From the human T2T-CHM13v2.0 reference genome, Homo sapiens, in NCBI RefSeq assembly GCF_009914755.1, contig NC_060927.1: a stretch of DNA of 64,000 bases; one strand, 5' to 3'. Below are positions 36,706-61,762 of the stretch, piece after piece. The first letter of the stretch is position 1. The number at the start of each line of letters is the position of its first letter. The notes beneath the pieces are model-generated. The model was not told the origin of the DNA. It saw only the letters and a list, made by a program, of their open reading frames with translations, and made no database searches. The position numbers and the translations under genes were made by a program.

Positions 36706-36735
36706 TTATGGCCACAGTTCAAAATACATGTATTC
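36706..36735 (-). CDS. PLSCR-like terminal coding exon ([13 protein letters not shown])
   Basis: Acceptor TTTTCATTCTAG|GAATACATGTATTTTGAA; homologous to the family C-terminal D(F/Y)MFFE. Confidence 0.85.
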   Translation of the reverse strand, partial: EYMYFELWP

Positions 36736-39700
36736 CTAGAATGAAAATGAAAAATAAATACAATTAGATTGGTTTAACAGTAGAAACAACTACAGGCATT
36801 AGACATGAGAATGATTTTTAAGGTCCCTGTATTATAATAACATGATCACAAAACATATTAAAAAGCAGAAGTCTGAGGAGCAGACCCATGAGGAACCAAC
36901 TTGCAAGGGTATAAGAATGACTGTTTGCCCTTAAATACATCAAAATAATAGATTTGTACATCTCTAAAGGCCCTTAGAGATCAGCAACTAATTCTACCTC
37001 ATTTTACTTATGTATGTTTTTTCATTTACATACTCATTTTAGAAAACTGGAGGAAAAGAGAAGGAAAAAATTTATATTTTCAATCAATCCCAAAATCTAC
37101 CATAAGTATTTTGGTACAAATTACTCCAAGACATACATAATTGCTGTTATAATATGCTTATACCCTGGTTTTTTTCACTGCATAAAATATTCTGAGTATT
37201 TGTGTCATTAAAGGTCCTTAAAAGTATTTCATTTTTTAGTTTGTTTTAATATCTATTTATTACTCTAGTCTAGAGATGTCTCATAATGTATTTAGTAAGC
37301 CTCATACTCACACATTTTATGTTGTTTTAATTTTTGCTGTTTATTTAAGTTTGCTACATAGAGTGTACATTGCTAGTTACTATATTGTACACAATTATTT
37401 GTCTGCATCTGAAAGAATATAAACATTAAATTTTTGACAAATGTTTTTAATTTATTCCTCTAAAGGTTGTACCTATAGCTCATGAGCACTTGATTCCTTA
37501 AATCTTCATCAGCATTGAGCATACATCATTAGAAATAAAAACTTTAATACATGATAAACAAAAAATGGTATTTTATCCTTTATTTTTTGCTTCTCTTGTG
37601 TGTTTTTGGAGACGCTTTCTTAAGTTTAGTGGTTTTTATTCCCTCTTTGATAGTTATTTGAATTATTTTTCATAATATTTGTACATTTTCGTTAAGTATT
37701 TGATATTTTTCTTAATTAAATATCATTTTTATTAACATAAGAACATTAGTCCTTGGTCATATTTGTTGTGTATTTCCTTAATTTATTATTTTCCTTATTT
37801 CCTATACTTTCCTTAATTTATTATTTGCTTTTAAATATTTAATATTATGAGGTTTTATGGGGTACACACATTTAAACTATTTAAATTTAGTAGTCTGTTA
37901 CTTTATGATTTTCTTGCTTTGAAAGACCTATTTTGTCTAGAGTACAAGTATGGGTACTCTTTGTTTATTTTTGTTTGCTTAATGGTTCAATATCTCCTTC
38001 ATTATGCTTCCTTGGGTTTATTCTTTTTTTTTTTCCTAACTTTATAGCTTTAGCTAATTAATTTAGCTTATTAATTTTTCTCTTTTCTTCAATAATTATA
38101 GCTATAGAGTTTTGAGATGTAATATTTTATTACATATTTTAAAGTATTTTAAATTTTTTGTTACGGCTTTTTAAAAAAATAATTGGGTTATTTACATTCC
38201 TTTTTTTTTTTTTTTTTTTTGAGACAGAGTCTCGCTCTGTTGTCCAGGCTGGAGTGTAGTGGCGTGATCTTGGCTCACTGCAAGCTCCGCCTCCCTGGTT
38301 CACGCCATTCTCCTGCCTCAGCCTCCCAAGTAGCTGGGACTACAGGCGCCCACCACCACGCCCAACTAATTTTTTGTATTTTCAGCAGAGACAGGGTTTC
38401 ACCGTGTTAGTCAGGATGGTCTTGATCTTCTGGCCTCGTGATCTACACGCCTCGGCCTCCCAAAGTGCTGGGATTACAGGCGTGAGCCACCGTGCCCAGC
38501 CTACATTTCTATATGTATAAAACATTTAAAAATATTTATTAACCTCTAATTGAGTGTTGTTTGCTCATATACTAAGGTCTAAATGATAATGATTCTCTCT
38601 AATTTGTCGAGACTTGCTTCTTGGCCCACTATTATATTAATTTTTGTAAACAATATTTATTTGAGAAAAATGTGTGTTGTCTAATTGTTTGATAAAAAGT
38701 TCAGCTGGGCACAGTGGCTCACGTCTGTAATCCCAGCACTTTGGGAGGCCGAGGCGGGCAGATCACGAGGTCAAGAGATTGAGACCATCCTGGCCAACAT
38801 GGTGAAACTTCTTCTCTACTAAAACTACAAAAATTAGCTGGGCGTGGTGGCATGCGCTTGTAGTCCCAGCTACTGGGGAGGCTGAGGCAGGAGAATCGCT
38901 TGAACCCGGGAGGCAGAGGTTGCAGTGAGCTGAGATTGTGCCACTGCACTGCACTCCAGCCTGGCGACAGAGACTCCGTCTCAAAAAAAAAAAAAAAACT
39001 TCTAAATAAGACCATTAATCAACTTATTCATTTTGTTGTTCAAATTTTAAATAACTTTACTAATGTTCTGTCTCTTATATCTAGTATAAATGAAGAGATG
39101 TGAGTAAATTCCGCATTTTGATGATGGGTTTGTCATTCTAACTTTTTAACACTTGTCTCTATATTTTGAAGTTAATATTACATGCATACAGGTCTAGAAT
39201 TATTACATCTTGTTTGAATAGAAGCTTTATCATTGTAGTTACCCATTTTGTTTCTGTTTCTATTTTTTGGAGTCTTAATGTCTTTTTTTTCCCCTGGTAT
39301 TAATTTAGCTTCCCTAGCTTTCTTGTGGTTAGTATTTATCCATATTCTCTTTCTTTCCATTTTTTGGTCATTAATTTAGATTTGTCTTTTTAAAAGAGAC
39401 TACAGATACTTTAAAAATCCAATTTAACAATTTCTTTTCTTTTCTTTTCTTTTTTTTTGAGATGGAGTTTCGCTCTTGTTGTCCAGGCTGGAGTGCAGTG
39501 GTGCAATCTCAGCTCACCGCAACCTCTGCCTCCTGGGTTCAAGCGATTCTCCTGCCTCAGCCTCCCGAGTAGCTCAGATTACAGGCATGTGTCACCTGCT
39601 CGGCTGATTTTGTATTTTTAGTAGAGACGGGGTTTCTCCATGTTGGTCAAGCTGGTCTCGAACTCCTGACCTCAGGTGATCTGCCCACCTCGCCCTCCCA

Positions 39701-60700: not shown

Positions 60701-61762
60701 TTTTTACCCAAATGCTAAAAGGTTTTGTTATATTTATATCATAATTTATGACAAGTTTATAATTAAGCATTGAAAATGTAAACAACCTTTTCAAGAAGTT
60801 ACATATATACTATTTTATTTTTAAAGTATTACAAAATAAAATGTGGCCAATGATTACAGACAACTAAATTGTCAAAGTTAATTATTCAAGAGACAATATC
60901 ACAGGAAATTAAATCAGAATTGAAATCATAAACTTTGATTTAATTGTATTCAATGTAGTACAGAATAAGAGACATTTTCCCAAAATTAGTGTTTATATTT
61001 TACATTTTCATACCAGGTTTCTAACGCACAAGCAATAGATGAAGTGAGGATTCTCAAGGTTAATGTAAGTTATATTCTCAAAATACAATTTCCTATTTTA
61101 AAAGTAGGCATTTATTTATTTTTATTTATTTTATTTTATTTTTGAGACAGAGTCTAGCTCTGTCACCCAGGTTGGAGTGCAGTGGCGCGATCTTGACTCA
61201 CTGCAACCTCTGTTTCCCGGGTTCACACCATTCTCCTGCCTCAGCCTCTTGAGTAGTTGGGACTACAGGTGCCCACCACCACGCCTGGCTAATTTTTTGT
61301 ATTTTTAGTAGAGACGGGGTTTCACCGTGTTAGCCAGGATGGTCTCTATCTCCTGACCTCATGATCCGCCCGCCTCAGCCTCCCAAAGTGCTAGGATTAC
61401 AGGCGTGAGCCACTGCATCTGGCCAAAAGTAGGCATTTGTTTTTAAATGAGATTCCTAGGAAATAAATTTGTATGTAACAATATTATAATATGTAAAGTG
61501 TAAGTTTACTATCTCTATCAAAAATAAAAATTTAAATATAAATAAAATATAAAAATCTTAATGTTAAAGTCACAGTATTTTAATCCACAGTCAAAATTTT
61601 TTATAACAAGTTATATTCTGGAACGATCTAAATTCATGTTGTTATGGATCAAGTAAGTTGAGAAACACATTGCCATACCTGATGCAAATACTCTAATCCA
61701 AGTGGACAGCTGGTTATTGTCTCTGGTGTAGACAACCAGGGTCGTAGGTCATAAATAGCCAT
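36706..61762 (-). CDS. Spliced phospholipid scramblase family paralogue, 6 coding exons, 681 nt, 226 aa
   Basis: join(61762-61679,60342-60300,46733-46534,43995-43834,41095-40934,36735-36706); all introns GT-AG, phases 0,1,0,0,0, no internal stop. Protein: [226 protein letters not shown]. Confidence 0.85.
38201..38501 (-). mobile_element. AluY
   Basis: Poly(T) then GAGACAGAGTCTCGC...GCAAGCTCCGCC...TTCACGCCATTCTCC (Y-type diagnostics). Confidence 0.93.
38703..38998 (+). mobile_element. AluS (Sc-like)
   Basis: Full dimer with GATCACGAGGTCAAGAGAT and an A tail. Confidence 0.92.
39436..39740 (-). mobile_element. AluS (Sp/Sq-like)
   Basis: Full dimer; perfect 15-bp TSD AATTTAACAATTTCT. Confidence 0.93.
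39901..40290 (+). mobile_element. THE1-type solo LTR
   Basis: TGATATGG...CTAATACA; perfect 5-bp TSD ATGAC. Confidence 0.92.
40934..41095 (-). CDS. PLSCR-like exon (162 nt): NLS-like segment, Ca2+-loop homologue and C-terminal helix
   Basis: TTTTAG|TTATTG...CTCATT|GTGAGT; GKISK...[24 protein letters not shown]. Confidence 0.93.
43834..43995 (-). CDS. PLSCR-like exon (162 nt), absent from the ORF track
   Basis: TTTGTAG|CTAAAA...[26 protein letters not shown]...[23 protein letters not shown]. Confidence 0.92.
44845..45018. repeat. Polypyrimidine (CTTC/CTTT/CT)n low-complexity tract
   Basis: Direct reading. Confidence 0.9.
45345..46290 (+). mobile_element. Old L1M ORF2 3' fragment
   Basis: AAAGCTACTAGAA, GAAGATTCAATAT, TACAAAAATTAACTCAAAATGG L1 motifs. 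Confidence 0.75.
46534..46733 (-). CDS. PLSCR-like exon (200 nt)
   Basis: CTCTAG|TCCTC...[34 protein letters not shown]...[15 protein letters not shown]. Confidence 0.93.
47641..47941 (-). mobile_element. AluS
   Basis: Full dimer; 11-bp TSD TAAACATTCTG. Confidence 0.93.
48318..48345. repeat. (CA)n microsatellite
   Basis: Direct reading. Confidence 0.9.
48486..48680. mobile_element. MER5A-like DNA transposon relic
   Basis: AGTTCTCAAA...CACCTGGAGGGCTT...GCATTTCTAACA.GTTCCCAGGTGATG...GACCACAC. Confidence 0.8.
48996..49465 (+). mobile_element. LTR10 (HERV-IP10 family; LTR10F/A-like) solo LTR
   Basis: TGTTAAATAT...TAACA, 4-bp TSD ATCA, repeated CTCCACC(C)TGACTCATT units. Confidence 0.8.
50180..57332 (-). 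mobile_element. HERV-T/HERV-S71 provirus with LTR6 (5' LTR 56781-57332, 3' LTR 50180-50736), defective
   Basis: Paired LTRs TGTAATGCC...ACAACA, 4-bp TSD GTTT, Thr PBS, gammaretroviral gag ([26 protein letters not shown]), pol ([22 protein letters not shown]) and env SU remnant (FYLCPG). Confidence 0.92.
56761..56778 (-). other. Primer binding site complementary to tRNA-Thr
   Basis: TGGGGGCCCCAGTGAGAT directly after the 5' LTR; two mismatches to TGGAGGCCCCAGCGAGAT. Confidence 0.8.
57743..58273 (-). mobile_element. Second LTR10-family solo LTR
   Basis: Reverse complement begins TGTTAAATAT...TTTCTCTTCAAAGAATCAGTATG, similar to 48996-49465; TSD GAAT/GAAC. Confidence 0.78.
60300..60342 (-). CDS. 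PLSCR-like 43-nt micro-exon ([14 protein letters not shown])
   Basis: CTAATAG|ATAAATCAG...GGAG|GTATGT; same size and phase as the IDQILIHQQIELLE exon of PLSCR1 as recalled. Confidence 0.85.
61114..61424 (-). mobile_element. AluY
   Basis: Full dimer; perfect 14-bp TSD AAAAGTAGGCATTT. Confidence 0.93.
61679..61762 (-). CDS. PLSCR-like first visible coding exon ([28 protein letters not shown])
   Basis: Homologous to WMPAP...NCPPGLEYLSQ; donor CAG|GTATGG; ATG context TTTATGG; an upstream exon is possible. Confidence 0.82.

What the first reader, a model, noticed from the sequence alone, without database searches (positions are those of the whole stretch)
36706..61762. Intact six-exon phospholipid scramblase paralogue hidden among repeats
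Seen: six minus-strand exons with canonical GT-AG ends splice in frame to 226 aa with no stop, followed by AATAAA; four of the six are absent from the ORF track. Known: exon sizes 43/162/162 and the motifs match PLSCR gene architecture. The sequence differs clearly from PLSCR1, PLSCR2 and PLSCR5 as recalled. Inference: an open frame plus ten conserved splice sites at this divergence suggests a functional or only recently inactivated extra family member, which may be annotated only as a pseudogene or as read-through exons of a neighbour.
Basis: partly seen in the sequence, partly recalled or inferred. Interest (0 to 1): 0.9.

Follow-up and report, generated by a model that had tools for sequence, protein, structure and literature searches.

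The report
Human six-exon PLSCR2-like scramblase gene
Just downstream of human PLSCR2 lies an unbroken 226-codon copy of a scramblase gene shared by placental mammals; it has already been noted in print, so this is an annotation question rather than a discovery.

Summary
Six minus-strand exons (61762-61679, 60342-60300, 46733-46534, 43995-43834, 41095-40934, 36735-36706) join through ten GT-AG sites into an open 226-codon frame. Two AATAAA signals follow.

Three exons match Pfam Scramblase in collinear order. The product is about 50% identical to primate PLSCR1/PLSCR2 and 92% identical to a 233-aa 'PLSCR1-like' protein of Rhinopithecus. It nests in a strongly supported clade of short scramblases, about 236 aa, with no proline-rich N-terminus, found across placental mammals.

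In human RefSeq, five of the six exons appear only as read-through 3' exons of PLSCR2. Exon 4 is in no listed exon. A 2024/2025 gibbon-centromere paper already names a six-exon 'PLSCR2-like' gene on human T2T-CHM13 chr3.

The human copy lacks the 7-residue cysteine-rich motif that the models of all five other anthropoid species sampled keep. It also carries four private changes at conserved columns and a weaker start context.

The lineage nevertheless shows fewer replacements than neutrality predicts (6-7 against about 17). Any relaxation of constraint is therefore recent.

Whether the gene is still coding in human cannot be settled here. I put recent decay at about 0.5 and a live gene at about 0.38. 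Novelty is low.

The parts
61679..61762 (-). Coding exon 1, from the ATG at 61762. It encodes the N-terminus with the CP[P>L]GLEYL motif. The annotated exon runs up to the acceptor at 61781.
   Evidence: Orthologue start codons align here. tblastn with P0004 residues 1-31 gives 87% identity.
60300..60342 (-). Coding exon 2, 43 nt.
   Evidence: It coincides with a RefSeq exon in the hub table.
46534..46733 (-). Coding exon 3, 200 nt. Near its 3' end it is 21 nt (7 codons) shorter than the orthologues. The cysteine-rich motif is missing: human KCS-LQK against KCSCCWSRCCLQK in other anthropoids.
   Evidence: Pfam E = 1.8e-14. Sequence. Alignments.
43834..43995 (-). Coding exon 4, 162 nt, open and flanked by AG and GT, but absent from the RefSeq exon list. 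Its donor is AAT|gtaatt.
   Evidence: Pfam E = 1.1e-9. Present in 42 of 44 orthologue protein models.
40934..41095 (-). Coding exon 5, 162 nt. It carries the GKISK segment, the EF-hand-like loop ([12 protein letters not shown]) and the start of the C-terminal hydrophobic helix.
   Evidence: Pfam E = 2.1e-15..
36706..36735 (-). Coding part of the last exon: 9 codons plus TAA, ending the hydrophobic helix (EYMYFELWP).
   Evidence: The same C-terminus, [11 protein letters not shown], occurs in most orthologues.
36536..36705 (-). 3' UTR with two AATAAA signals (36615-36610 and 36567-36562) ahead of the annotated ends 36593 and 36536.
   Evidence: hub table.
61782..64000 (-). Read-through segment between the PLSCR2 last exon and exon 1. 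GT donors follow 63819 and 63543, and acceptors lie at 63691 and 61781. The segment is AT-rich and has no CpG island.
   Evidence: gtgaaa and gtgaga after the exon ends; cag and aag before the acceptors. GC 0.29-0.34, CpG observed/expected 0.00-0.07.
59932..59994 (-). Annotated 63-nt alternative exon. If it is included between exons 2 and 3, the frame stops after 48 codons.

Best explanation
**What it is.** This is the human orthologue of a short scramblase gene that arose by duplication before the placental radiation. It is variously labelled 'PLSCR1-like', 'PLSCR2-like' or even PLSCR1/2 in other mammals. Its product is about 236 aa: a full Scramblase domain, no proline-rich N-terminus, a cysteine-rich motif, an EF-hand-like loop and a C-terminal hydrophobic helix.

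**Shown for human.**
- The six exons still give an open 226-codon frame.
- The locus is annotated only as the tail of PLSCR2 read-through transcripts. Donors inside the PLSCR2 last exon/3' UTR (after 63819 and 63543) splice on to acceptors at 63691 and 61781.
- The paralogue's frame starts at its own ATG, behind in-frame stops. It is therefore a downstream frame, not a fusion.
- The listed exons omit exon 4. That leaves a 172-codon frame lacking a quarter of the domain.

**Inferred.**
- The gene was under purifying selection for most of the time since the catarrhine ancestor.
- Constraint has probably relaxed recently in the hominoid or human lineage. The signs are loss of the palmitoylation motif, private changes at conserved sites concentrated in exon 4, a weakened start context and no promoter of its own in the annotation.
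- In human it is therefore most likely a very young unitary pseudogene, or at best a marginally expressed gene, whose exons now serve as 3' exons of PLSCR2 transcripts.

**If translated.** The product would be a tail-anchored scramblase-domain protein that cannot be palmitoylated at the usual site. By analogy with PLSCR1 it would be less firmly held at the membrane.
For: **Identity**
- Pfam Scramblase matches on 3 of the 4 exon translations submitted.
- 92% identity to Rhinopithecus 'PLSCR1-like' P0004, with the same start and stop. About 50% identity to primate PLSCR1/2.
- The short-scramblase clade is monophyletic with SH-aLRT 100 and a stem of 0.48-0.51, in trees of 55 and 56 rows. It follows the placental species tree, and human nests within the anthropoids at 99-100.

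**Read-through**
- GT donors and AG acceptors sit at the annotated exon ends.
- In-frame stops lie 7-20 codons upstream of the ATG in all three arrangements tested. The frame is 172 codons without exon 4 and 48 codons with the 63-nt exon.

**Past constraint**
- 6 replacements (7 with one ambiguous site) against 17.2 expected, Poisson P = 0.002-0.005.
- Simulated chance of an intact frame plus splice sites under neutrality: 0.02 since the Old World monkey split, 0.12 since the gibbon split, 0.48 since the chimpanzee split. The divergences used are recalled values.

**Recent relaxation**
- The 7-aa cysteine-rich motif is absent in human but present in the models of all 5 other anthropoid species sampled.
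- Human differs at 8 of 93 columns that are at least 90% conserved in non-primates. Four of those changes are private, against one private change in Rhinopithecus.
- The score against a non-primate clade profile is 386.6 bits, against 422.5 for Rhinopithecus.
- 3 of the 6 lineage changes (4 of 7) fall in exon 4, which holds 54 of the 226 codons.
- Exon 4 is absent from the RefSeq exon list and from the one other hominoid model, gibbon P0002. It is present in 42 of 44 clade models.
- The base at -3 of the ATG is T in human. All 4 models that run upstream have Ile there, which implies A.
- There is no CpG island upstream.
Against: - The frame, the start, the stop and all ten splice sites are intact.
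- Private changes at columns at least 95% conserved are 2 of 58 for human, well inside the range of 0-10 seen among 29 species.
- The human and Rhinopithecus lineages have similar replacement counts, 6 against 5. Overall human is therefore not accelerated.
- The 4-against-1 and exon-4 excesses are small numbers and not significant.
- The cysteine-rich motif is also shortened in the Ursus, Loxodonta and Prolemur models, which are annotated as coding.
- Absence of exon 4 from RefSeq models is absence of annotation, not proof of skipping. Testis long-read data were not available here.
- No orthologous DNA could be fetched, so no dN/dS was computed.
- The date of the deletion is unknown, as is whether it is fixed in humans.
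Confidence: 0.5

Rival explanations
1. A live sixth human scramblase gene. The 226-codon frame, exon 4 included, is transcribed, probably in testis like PLSCR2, and translated into a tail-anchored Scramblase-domain protein. That protein lost its palmitoylation motif in the human lineage and so may sit differently in the cell.
For: - The frame is intact, with ten canonical splice sites and a conserved start and stop.
- Two used polyadenylation signals follow the frame.
- The lineage shows 6-7 replacements against 17.2 expected under neutrality.
- Human is not an outlier for private changes at conserved columns.
- Orthologues with a shortened cysteine-rich motif exist elsewhere.
- Orthologues are predicted as coding in all four placental superorders.
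Against: - No listed human exon is exon 4, and no first exon is listed near the ATG (hub table).
- In read-through transcripts the frame lies downstream of the PLSCR2 coding region.
- The start context is weakened.
- Residues have changed in SRPF, YVYQ, IRGP and CPPGLE, which are invariant or nearly so across the clade.
- The palmitoylation motif is lost.
Confidence: 0.38
2. A recent segmental duplicate or fragment of PLSCR2 or PLSCR1. This would be a young human- or primate-specific pseudogene copy rather than an old gene.
For: It sits directly downstream of PLSCR2 in a tandem cluster, and PLSCR4P1 lies nearby (hub table).
Against: - It is only about 50% identical to primate PLSCR1/2.
- It belongs to a clade holding Afrotheria, Xenarthra, Laurasiatheria and Euarchontoglires, with SH-aLRT 100.
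- It has introns with conserved positions and is 13-26 kb long, so it is not a processed copy.
Confidence: 0.02
3. A chance open frame or a reader's artefact assembled from unrelated pieces.
For: None beyond the short exons 1, 2 and 6, which are too small to score on their own. Exon 1 gave no Pfam match.
Against: - Collinear Pfam matches of E = 1e-9 to 1e-15.
- 87-100% identity of each exon to primate orthologue models, in the right order.
Confidence: 0.01

Closest known systems
'PLSCR2-like (six exons)' of Hartley et al. (bioRxiv 2024.08.29.610280 = PMC11384015; Cell Genomics 2025 = PMC12008813)
   Same: [quoted passage not shown] In the hoolock gibbon, PLSCR2-like stays with PLSCR4 while PLSCR1 goes elsewhere. 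That fits a position on the PLSCR4 side of PLSCR2, as here (passages seen).
   Different: I saw no coordinates, sequence or coding analysis in the passages, and figures are not held. That their gene is this locus is therefore inferred from name, exon number, chromosome and order. They do not discuss the open frame, the lost cysteine-rich motif or exon 4.
Predicted 'phospholipid scramblase 1-like / 2-like' proteins of other placental mammals (for example Rhinopithecus bieti P0004, 233 aa; Canis P0035, 236 aa; Tamandua P0027, 236 aa)
   Same: Same clade (SH-aLRT 100), same start and stop, and the same domain order. P0004 matches Pfam Scramblase over its full length at 234.9 bits.
   Different: Human lacks 7 residues of the cysteine-rich motif and has private changes at conserved sites. 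In human the exons are filed under PLSCR2 rather than as a gene of their own (hub table).
PLSCR1
   Same: It shares the Scramblase domain, the GKISK segment, an EF-hand-like loop ending FGIQFP-x-D, and a C-terminal hydrophobic helix. These are seen in the alignment with Rhinopithecus PLSCR1 P0075. The domain list of PLSCR1 comes from review PMC9158361 (passages).
   Different: - About 51% identity.
- No proline-rich N-terminal region in the whole clade.
- The loop starts N-G-E-K instead of D-A-D-N.
- The human copy has no cysteine-rich motif.
- The 10-residue tail after the helix is missing.
PLSCR2 (the gene under which these exons are annotated)
   Same: It is the neighbour on the same strand. 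Read-through transcripts join the two (hub table). The review calls PLSCR2 testis-restricted (PMC9158361).
   Different: A separate coding unit. The frame begins at its own ATG behind in-frame stops. It is 49.6% identical to a putative primate PLSCR2, Theropithecus P0129. That label is my inference from the tree.
Mouse 1700057G04Rik (testis-enriched PLSCR1 homologue; knockout males fertile; PMC9226692)
   Same: A short, testis-enriched scramblase homologue with no recognised one-to-one human partner. The paper lists PLSCR1 and PLSCR2 as its human 'orthologs' (passages).
   Different: Orthology to this locus is not shown. No muroid protein fell in the clade among the listed hits. The one muroid short scramblase recovered, Peromyscus P0172, lies outside it. 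The current mouse symbol I recall for this gene found 0 papers.

Membership tests
Scramblase family (Pfam PF03803) | Sequence match to the family profile above the curated cut-off of 25.4 bits | tested here: met
   Exons 3, 4 and 5 score 54.1, 38.4 and 57.1 bits at collinear profile positions 38-98, 109-161 and 164-214. Profile positions about 99-108 are missing. Orthologue P0004 covers 6-220 of 221 at 234.9 bits. The joined human protein itself was not submitted.
Scramblase family (PLSCR1 type) | C-terminal hydrophobic helix (tail anchor) | tested here: met
   [19 protein letters not shown] aligns with the PLSCR1 helix. Its mean Kyte-Doolittle value is 1.19 over 19 residues, the third-highest stretch in the protein.
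Scramblase family (PLSCR1 type) | EF-hand-like Ca2+-binding loop (D-A-D-N-F-G-I-Q-F-P-L-D in primate PLSCR1 P0075) | tested here: inconclusive
   Human has [12 protein letters not shown]. The FGIQFP-x-D core is kept, but the first acidic position is N in the whole clade and the third is E in anthropoids. Ca2+ binding cannot be judged from sequence.
Scramblase family (PLSCR1 type) | Cysteine-rich palmitoylation motif (184CCCPCC189 in PLSCR1; PMC9158361) | tested here: not met
   Human reads KCS-LQK with one cysteine left. All 5 other anthropoid species sampled have CSCCWSRCC.
Scramblase family (PLSCR1 type) | Proline-rich N-terminal region with PXXP/PPXY motifs | tested here: not met
   It is absent from human and from the whole short clade. 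The protein starts about 20 residues before CPPGLEYL. This is a feature of PLSCR1, not of the Pfam family.
Scramblase family | Ca2+-dependent phospholipid scrambling activity; beta-barrel fold around the C-terminal helix | not testable with these tools
   Structure prediction was not accepted. No solved structure matches the clade profile by sequence at E up to 1. Activity needs a bench assay.
Placental short-scramblase ('PLSCR2-like') orthologue group | Falls inside the clade, at the place the species tree predicts | tested here: met
   The clade has SH-aLRT 100, the anthropoids 99-100, and the nearest row is gibbon P0002 at 97% over 171-172 columns.
Placental short-scramblase ('PLSCR2-like') orthologue group | Same six-coding-exon layout, same start and stop, position beside PLSCR2 | tested here: met
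   Met for human. The six exons and the shared start and stop with P0004 are, and the position comes from the hub table. Exon layout and synteny in other species were not tested here, only reported for macaque and marmoset in PMC11384015.

The most novel reading that the evidence does not exclude
The human PLSCR2-like frame is a translated sixth member of the human PLSCR family, beside PLSCR1-5. It would be made from testis transcripts that include exon 4. Loss of the cysteine-rich palmitoylation motif, seen in human but in none of the five other anthropoid species sampled, would have changed where the protein sits: away from the membrane and possibly into the nucleus, as reported for unpalmitoylated PLSCR1.
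Probability: 0.3. Interest if true: 0.55.

Novelty: already known. Interest (0 to 1): 0.28.

Why it matters
- **Gene count.** Reviews count four or five human scramblases. The passages I saw in PMC9158361 say four. This locus would be one more if it is still coding, and new human protein-coding genes are rare.
- **Data interpretation.** Reads, variants and isoforms from 36.5-62 kb of this window are at present credited to PLSCR2, although they belong to a different coding unit.
- **Evolution.** The human loss of the palmitoylation motif is a natural test of what that motif does. The locus may be a gene caught at the moment of dying.

None of this changes what is known about how scramblases work.

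Tried and rejected
- **Mouse 1700057G04Rik as the known orthologue.** This was a lead from recall. The knockout paper was found, but no muroid protein fell in the clade, and Peromyscus P0172 lies outside it. The link is not established.
- **Private-substitution test for decay.** Human has 2 of 58, inside the range of 0-10. This does not support decay on its own.
- **Structure prediction of orthologue alignment A1.** The aim was to place the deleted motif and exon 4 in the fold. 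It was not accepted and not accepted again after 20 other calls. I dropped it, so no fold evidence is offered.
- **Solved structures by sequence.** 0 matches at E up to 1.
- **Rfam over the whole window.** 0 matches.
- **Tandem repeats, 36-64 kb.** 14 rows of low-complexity repeats, none in an exon.
- **Literature.**
  - The recalled mouse symbol and 'PLSCR6' each found 0 papers.
  - PLSCR2 combined with read-through, pseudogene or PhyloCSF terms listed nothing containing PLSCR2 among the 12 papers shown of 2,056.
  - The PhyloCSF gene-discovery paper PMC6886504 has no PLSCR or scramblase in its main text or in the 8 supplementary files searched. Its files 1 and 8 were not searched and may bear on this.
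- **dN/dS.** Not possible. No mammalian orthologue DNA is reachable with these tools, so I used replacement counts against recalled neutral divergences instead.
- **N-terminal pieces of the Aotus and Prolemur models as lost proline-rich exons.** Rejected. They map between exons 2 and 3 and have old dispersed copies elsewhere in the window, so they are transposon-derived.

Full report
**The observation**

The window's minus strand carries six pieces: 61762-61679, 60342-60300, 46733-46534, 43995-43834, 41095-40934 and 36735-36706. Joined by coordinates, they give 678 coding nucleotides, 226 codons and no internal stop.

- Every intron starts with GT and ends with AG (sequence read).
- AATAAA lies at 36615-36610 and at 36567-36562, just ahead of the two annotated transcript ends 36593 and 36536.
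- Of the four exon translations I submitted to Pfam, three match Scramblase PF03803 in collinear order: E = 1.8e-14, 1.1e-9 and 2.1e-15 at profile positions 38-98, 109-161 and 164-214. The 28-residue exon 1 gave nothing.
- tblastn with ten orthologue models finds scramblase-like matches only at these six exons.

Five of the six exons coincide with exons that RefSeq lists under alternative PLSCR2 transcripts. Exon 4 (43834-43995) is not in that list (hub table).

**What it is related to**

A search with exon 3 alone, set to longer proteins, gave 34 proteins at E up to 0.001 among 40 candidates.

- The best are primate proteins at 94-97% identity, from Cebus, Symphalangus, Aotus, Rhinopithecus and Pygathrix.
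- Many other placental mammals follow at 59-81%.
- They are named 'phospholipid scramblase 1-like' or '2-like', or simply 1 or 2, and most are 221-259 residues long.

Two profile searches extended the set.

- One search found 1616 proteins at E up to 1e-10 among 3234 candidates, with 120 listed.
- One search found 244 at E up to 1e-20 among 2884, with 120 listed.
- They showed a score gap between this group and ordinary PLSCR1/PLSCR2.

The joined human protein is 91.8% identical to the 233-residue Rhinopithecus protein P0004: 12 mismatches and one 7-residue gap, with the same first and last residues. Other identities:

| Comparison | Identity |
|---|---|
| Cebus orthologue | 89% |
| Strepsirrhine, carnivore and xenarthran orthologues | 65-73% |
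| Primate PLSCR1 | 50-52% |
| Putative primate PLSCR2 | 49.6% |

Two maximum-likelihood trees agree (55 and 56 rows; quick search, LG+G4).

- The short proteins form one clade with SH-aLRT 100 and a long stem of 0.48-0.51.
- Inside it the branching follows the placental species tree: Afrotheria, Xenarthra, Laurasiatheria, Euarchontoglires.
- Human sits within the anthropoids (99-100), next to the gibbon model.

I chose the rows for these trees by hand from the listed hits. I left out fragments and fused models, such as P0008, P0009, P0015, P0016, P0030 and P0034.

No marsupial or non-mammal fell in the clade among the rows used. Where the clade attaches to PLSCR1/2 is not resolved, given the long stem.

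**Already in print**

A paper on hoolock gibbon centromeres covers this gene family (preprint PMC11384015, passages seen; Cell Genomics 2025 version PMC12008813, passages seen).

- It says the gibbon rearrangement leaves PLSCR2-like with PLSCR4.
- That order fits this locus. It lies downstream of PLSCR2 on the side of PLSCR4P1 (hub table).
- I saw no coordinates, and figures are not held, so the identity of their gene with this locus is an inference.
- They do not analyse coding potential.

A PLSCR1 review (PMC9158361, passages) counts only PLSCR1-4 and calls PLSCR2 testis-restricted. Searches for 'PLSCR6' and for the mouse symbol I recalled found no papers.

**How the locus is used in human, as far as the window shows**

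The annotated exons 63819-64318 and 63543-64318 end at GT (gtgaaa, gtgaga). The exons starting at 63691 and 61781 follow AG.

So donors inside the PLSCR2 last exon or 3' UTR are spliced on to the paralogue's first coding exon. These are read-through transcripts. No listed exon looks like a first exon near the ATG.

The 2 kb upstream of exon 1 is AT-rich (GC 0.29-0.34) with CpG observed/expected of 0.00-0.07.

I tested three upstream arrangements.

- In all three an in-frame stop lies 7-20 codons before the ATG at 61762. The frame is therefore never fused to PLSCR2 and would be a downstream frame in such transcripts.
- With the annotated exon set, which lacks exon 4, the frame stays open but is 172 codons and lacks profile positions 109-161.
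- With the annotated 63-nt exon 59932-59994 it stops after 48 codons.

**Signs of past constraint**

I inferred lineage changes by parsimony, with Rhinopithecus and Cebus as references.

- The human lineage since the catarrhine ancestor has 6 replacements: P21L, R82S, Q125R, E143D, R158G and D218E in model numbering.
- One further site, 148, is ambiguous.
- The Rhinopithecus lineage has 5.

With 537 non-synonymous sites and a recalled per-lineage neutral divergence of 0.032, 17.2 replacements would be expected. The Poisson P is 0.002-0.005.

A simple neutral simulation covered substitutions, indels at 0.12 per substitution and 20 splice bases. It keeps the frame and splice sites intact at these rates:

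| Time since split | Fraction intact |
|---|---|
| Old World monkeys | 0.02 |
| Gibbons | 0.12 |
| Chimpanzee | 0.48 |

The divergences are from memory and the model is crude. Even so, the gene cannot have been drifting for tens of millions of years.

**Signs of recent relaxation in human**

1. Near the end of exon 3 the human sequence reads KCS-LQK. The models of all five other anthropoid species sampled read KCSCCWSRCCLQK. This is a 21-nt in-frame loss of the cysteine-rich motif. In PLSCR1 the corresponding motif, 184CCCPCC189, is the palmitoylation site that decides between membrane and nucleus (PMC9158361).
2. There are 95 columns that are at least 90% conserved among 21 non-primate clade members. 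Human differs at 8 of 93, and four of those changes are private: in CPPGLE, SRPF, YVYQ and IRGP. Rhinopithecus differs at 6 of 95 with one private change, and Cebus at 8 of 95.
3. Against a profile built from the non-primates, human scores 386.6 bits. Rhinopithecus scores 422.5, Cebus 405.3 and Microcebus 444.9.
4. Three of the six lineage changes (four of seven) fall in exon 4, which holds 54 of the 226 codons.
5. Exon 4 is present in 42 of 44 clade protein models. It is missing from the only other hominoid model (gibbon P0002) and from one Cavia model. It is also in none of the human RefSeq exons.
6. The codon before the ATG is TTT in human, so the base at -3 is T. All four models that run upstream have Ile there, which implies A.

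**Results that cut the other way**

- At a stricter 95% conservation threshold, human has 2 private changes in 58 columns. That is well inside the range of 0-10 across 29 species.
- Human and Rhinopithecus lineage counts are alike.
- The cysteine-rich motif is also shortened in the Ursus, Loxodonta and Prolemur models.
- The excesses in points 2 and 4 above rest on very small numbers.
- The absence of exon 4 from models is not evidence that it is never spliced in.
- I could not obtain orthologous DNA, so there is no dN/dS.
- I cannot say whether the deletion is shared with great apes or fixed in humans.

**How it most likely works**

Shown:
- a conserved placental scramblase paralogue;
- an open human frame;
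- read-through splicing from PLSCR2;
- loss of the cysteine-rich motif;
- retention of the GKISK segment, of an EF-hand-like loop whose first two acidic positions are altered ([12 protein letters not shown]), and of the C-terminal hydrophobic helix.

Inferred:
- In other mammals the protein is a tail-anchored, palmitoylated scramblase-domain protein without the proline-rich adaptor region of PLSCR1.
- In human, constraint has probably relaxed recently, and the exons now serve mainly as 3' exons of PLSCR2 read-through RNAs.

My probabilities:

| Reading | Probability |
|---|---|
| Recent decay | about 0.5 |
| A still-translated gene | about 0.38 |
| Other readings | the small remainder |

If translated, the human protein could not be palmitoylated at the usual site. 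By analogy with PLSCR1 it would be less firmly held at the membrane.

The fold could not be examined. The structure tool did not accept jobs, and no solved structure matches by sequence. That scramblases have a Tubby-like barrel is recalled, not tested.

**Leads that failed**

The mouse testis gene 1700057G04Rik has fertile knockout males, and its paper lists PLSCR1 and PLSCR2 as the human 'orthologs' (PMC9226692, passages). It looked like the known counterpart.

However, no muroid protein appeared in the clade. The only muroid short scramblase recovered, Peromyscus P0172, lies outside it together with an Ochotona curzoniae protein. I therefore do not claim orthology.

The PhyloCSF gene-discovery paper has no mention of PLSCR in its main text or in the 8 supplementary files searched. 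Its files 1 and 8 were not searched.

**Verdict**

But the gene is an ordinary member of a known family, is annotated across mammals, and has been named for human in print. What remains open is whether human still makes the protein. Interest is low to moderate.

Noticed in passing
window 36642-36734, minus strand: The +1 frame of the last exon stays open for 31 codons. Protein models from Bos, Camelus, Eubalaena, Capricornis, Otolemur, Pygathrix, a Cavia-like record and Sciurus use the homologous alternative frame as their C-terminus, in place of the 9-residue helix end. This could be a conserved alternative ending or a shared prediction artefact.
   Followed up: partly
window 59932-59994, minus strand: The annotated 63-nt alternative exon matches, in another frame, the N-terminal extension of an armadillo-like model (P0032 residues 27-44, 72% identity). 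In human it breaks the frame whichever way it is read into exon 3.
   Followed up: partly
window 57637-58594, minus strand; copies at 49459-48996 and 6290-6016: The N-terminal pieces of the Aotus and Prolemur models map here, between exons 2 and 3. The stretch has old dispersed copies at 68-72% identity elsewhere in the window, so these 'exons' are probably transposon-derived.
   Followed up: partly
proteins P0172 (Peromyscus, 226 aa) and P0162 (Ochotona curzoniae, 233 aa): This is a second lineage of short scramblases without a proline-rich N-terminus, distinct from the clade of this locus. Pikas appear to have both kinds, since P0038 of Ochotona princeps lies in the clade. The mouse testis gene 1700057G04Rik may belong to this second lineage.
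   Followed up: no
proteins P0010 (Ursus), P0029 (Loxodonta), P0022 (Prolemur): The cysteine-rich motif of this clade is shortened independently in several mammals. The segment therefore seems prone to in-frame indels.
   Followed up: no
window 44849-45011: A (TTCC)n microsatellite of about 40 copies lies in the intron between exons 3 and 4.
   Followed up: no
anthropoid members of the clade (human, P0001-P0005): The anthropoid stem is long (0.16-0.17). It carries shared changes at columns conserved in other mammals, for example Cys to Trp after IRGP and Asp to Glu in the EF-hand-like loop. Constraint on this gene may therefore have shifted before the human lineage.
   Followed up: partly
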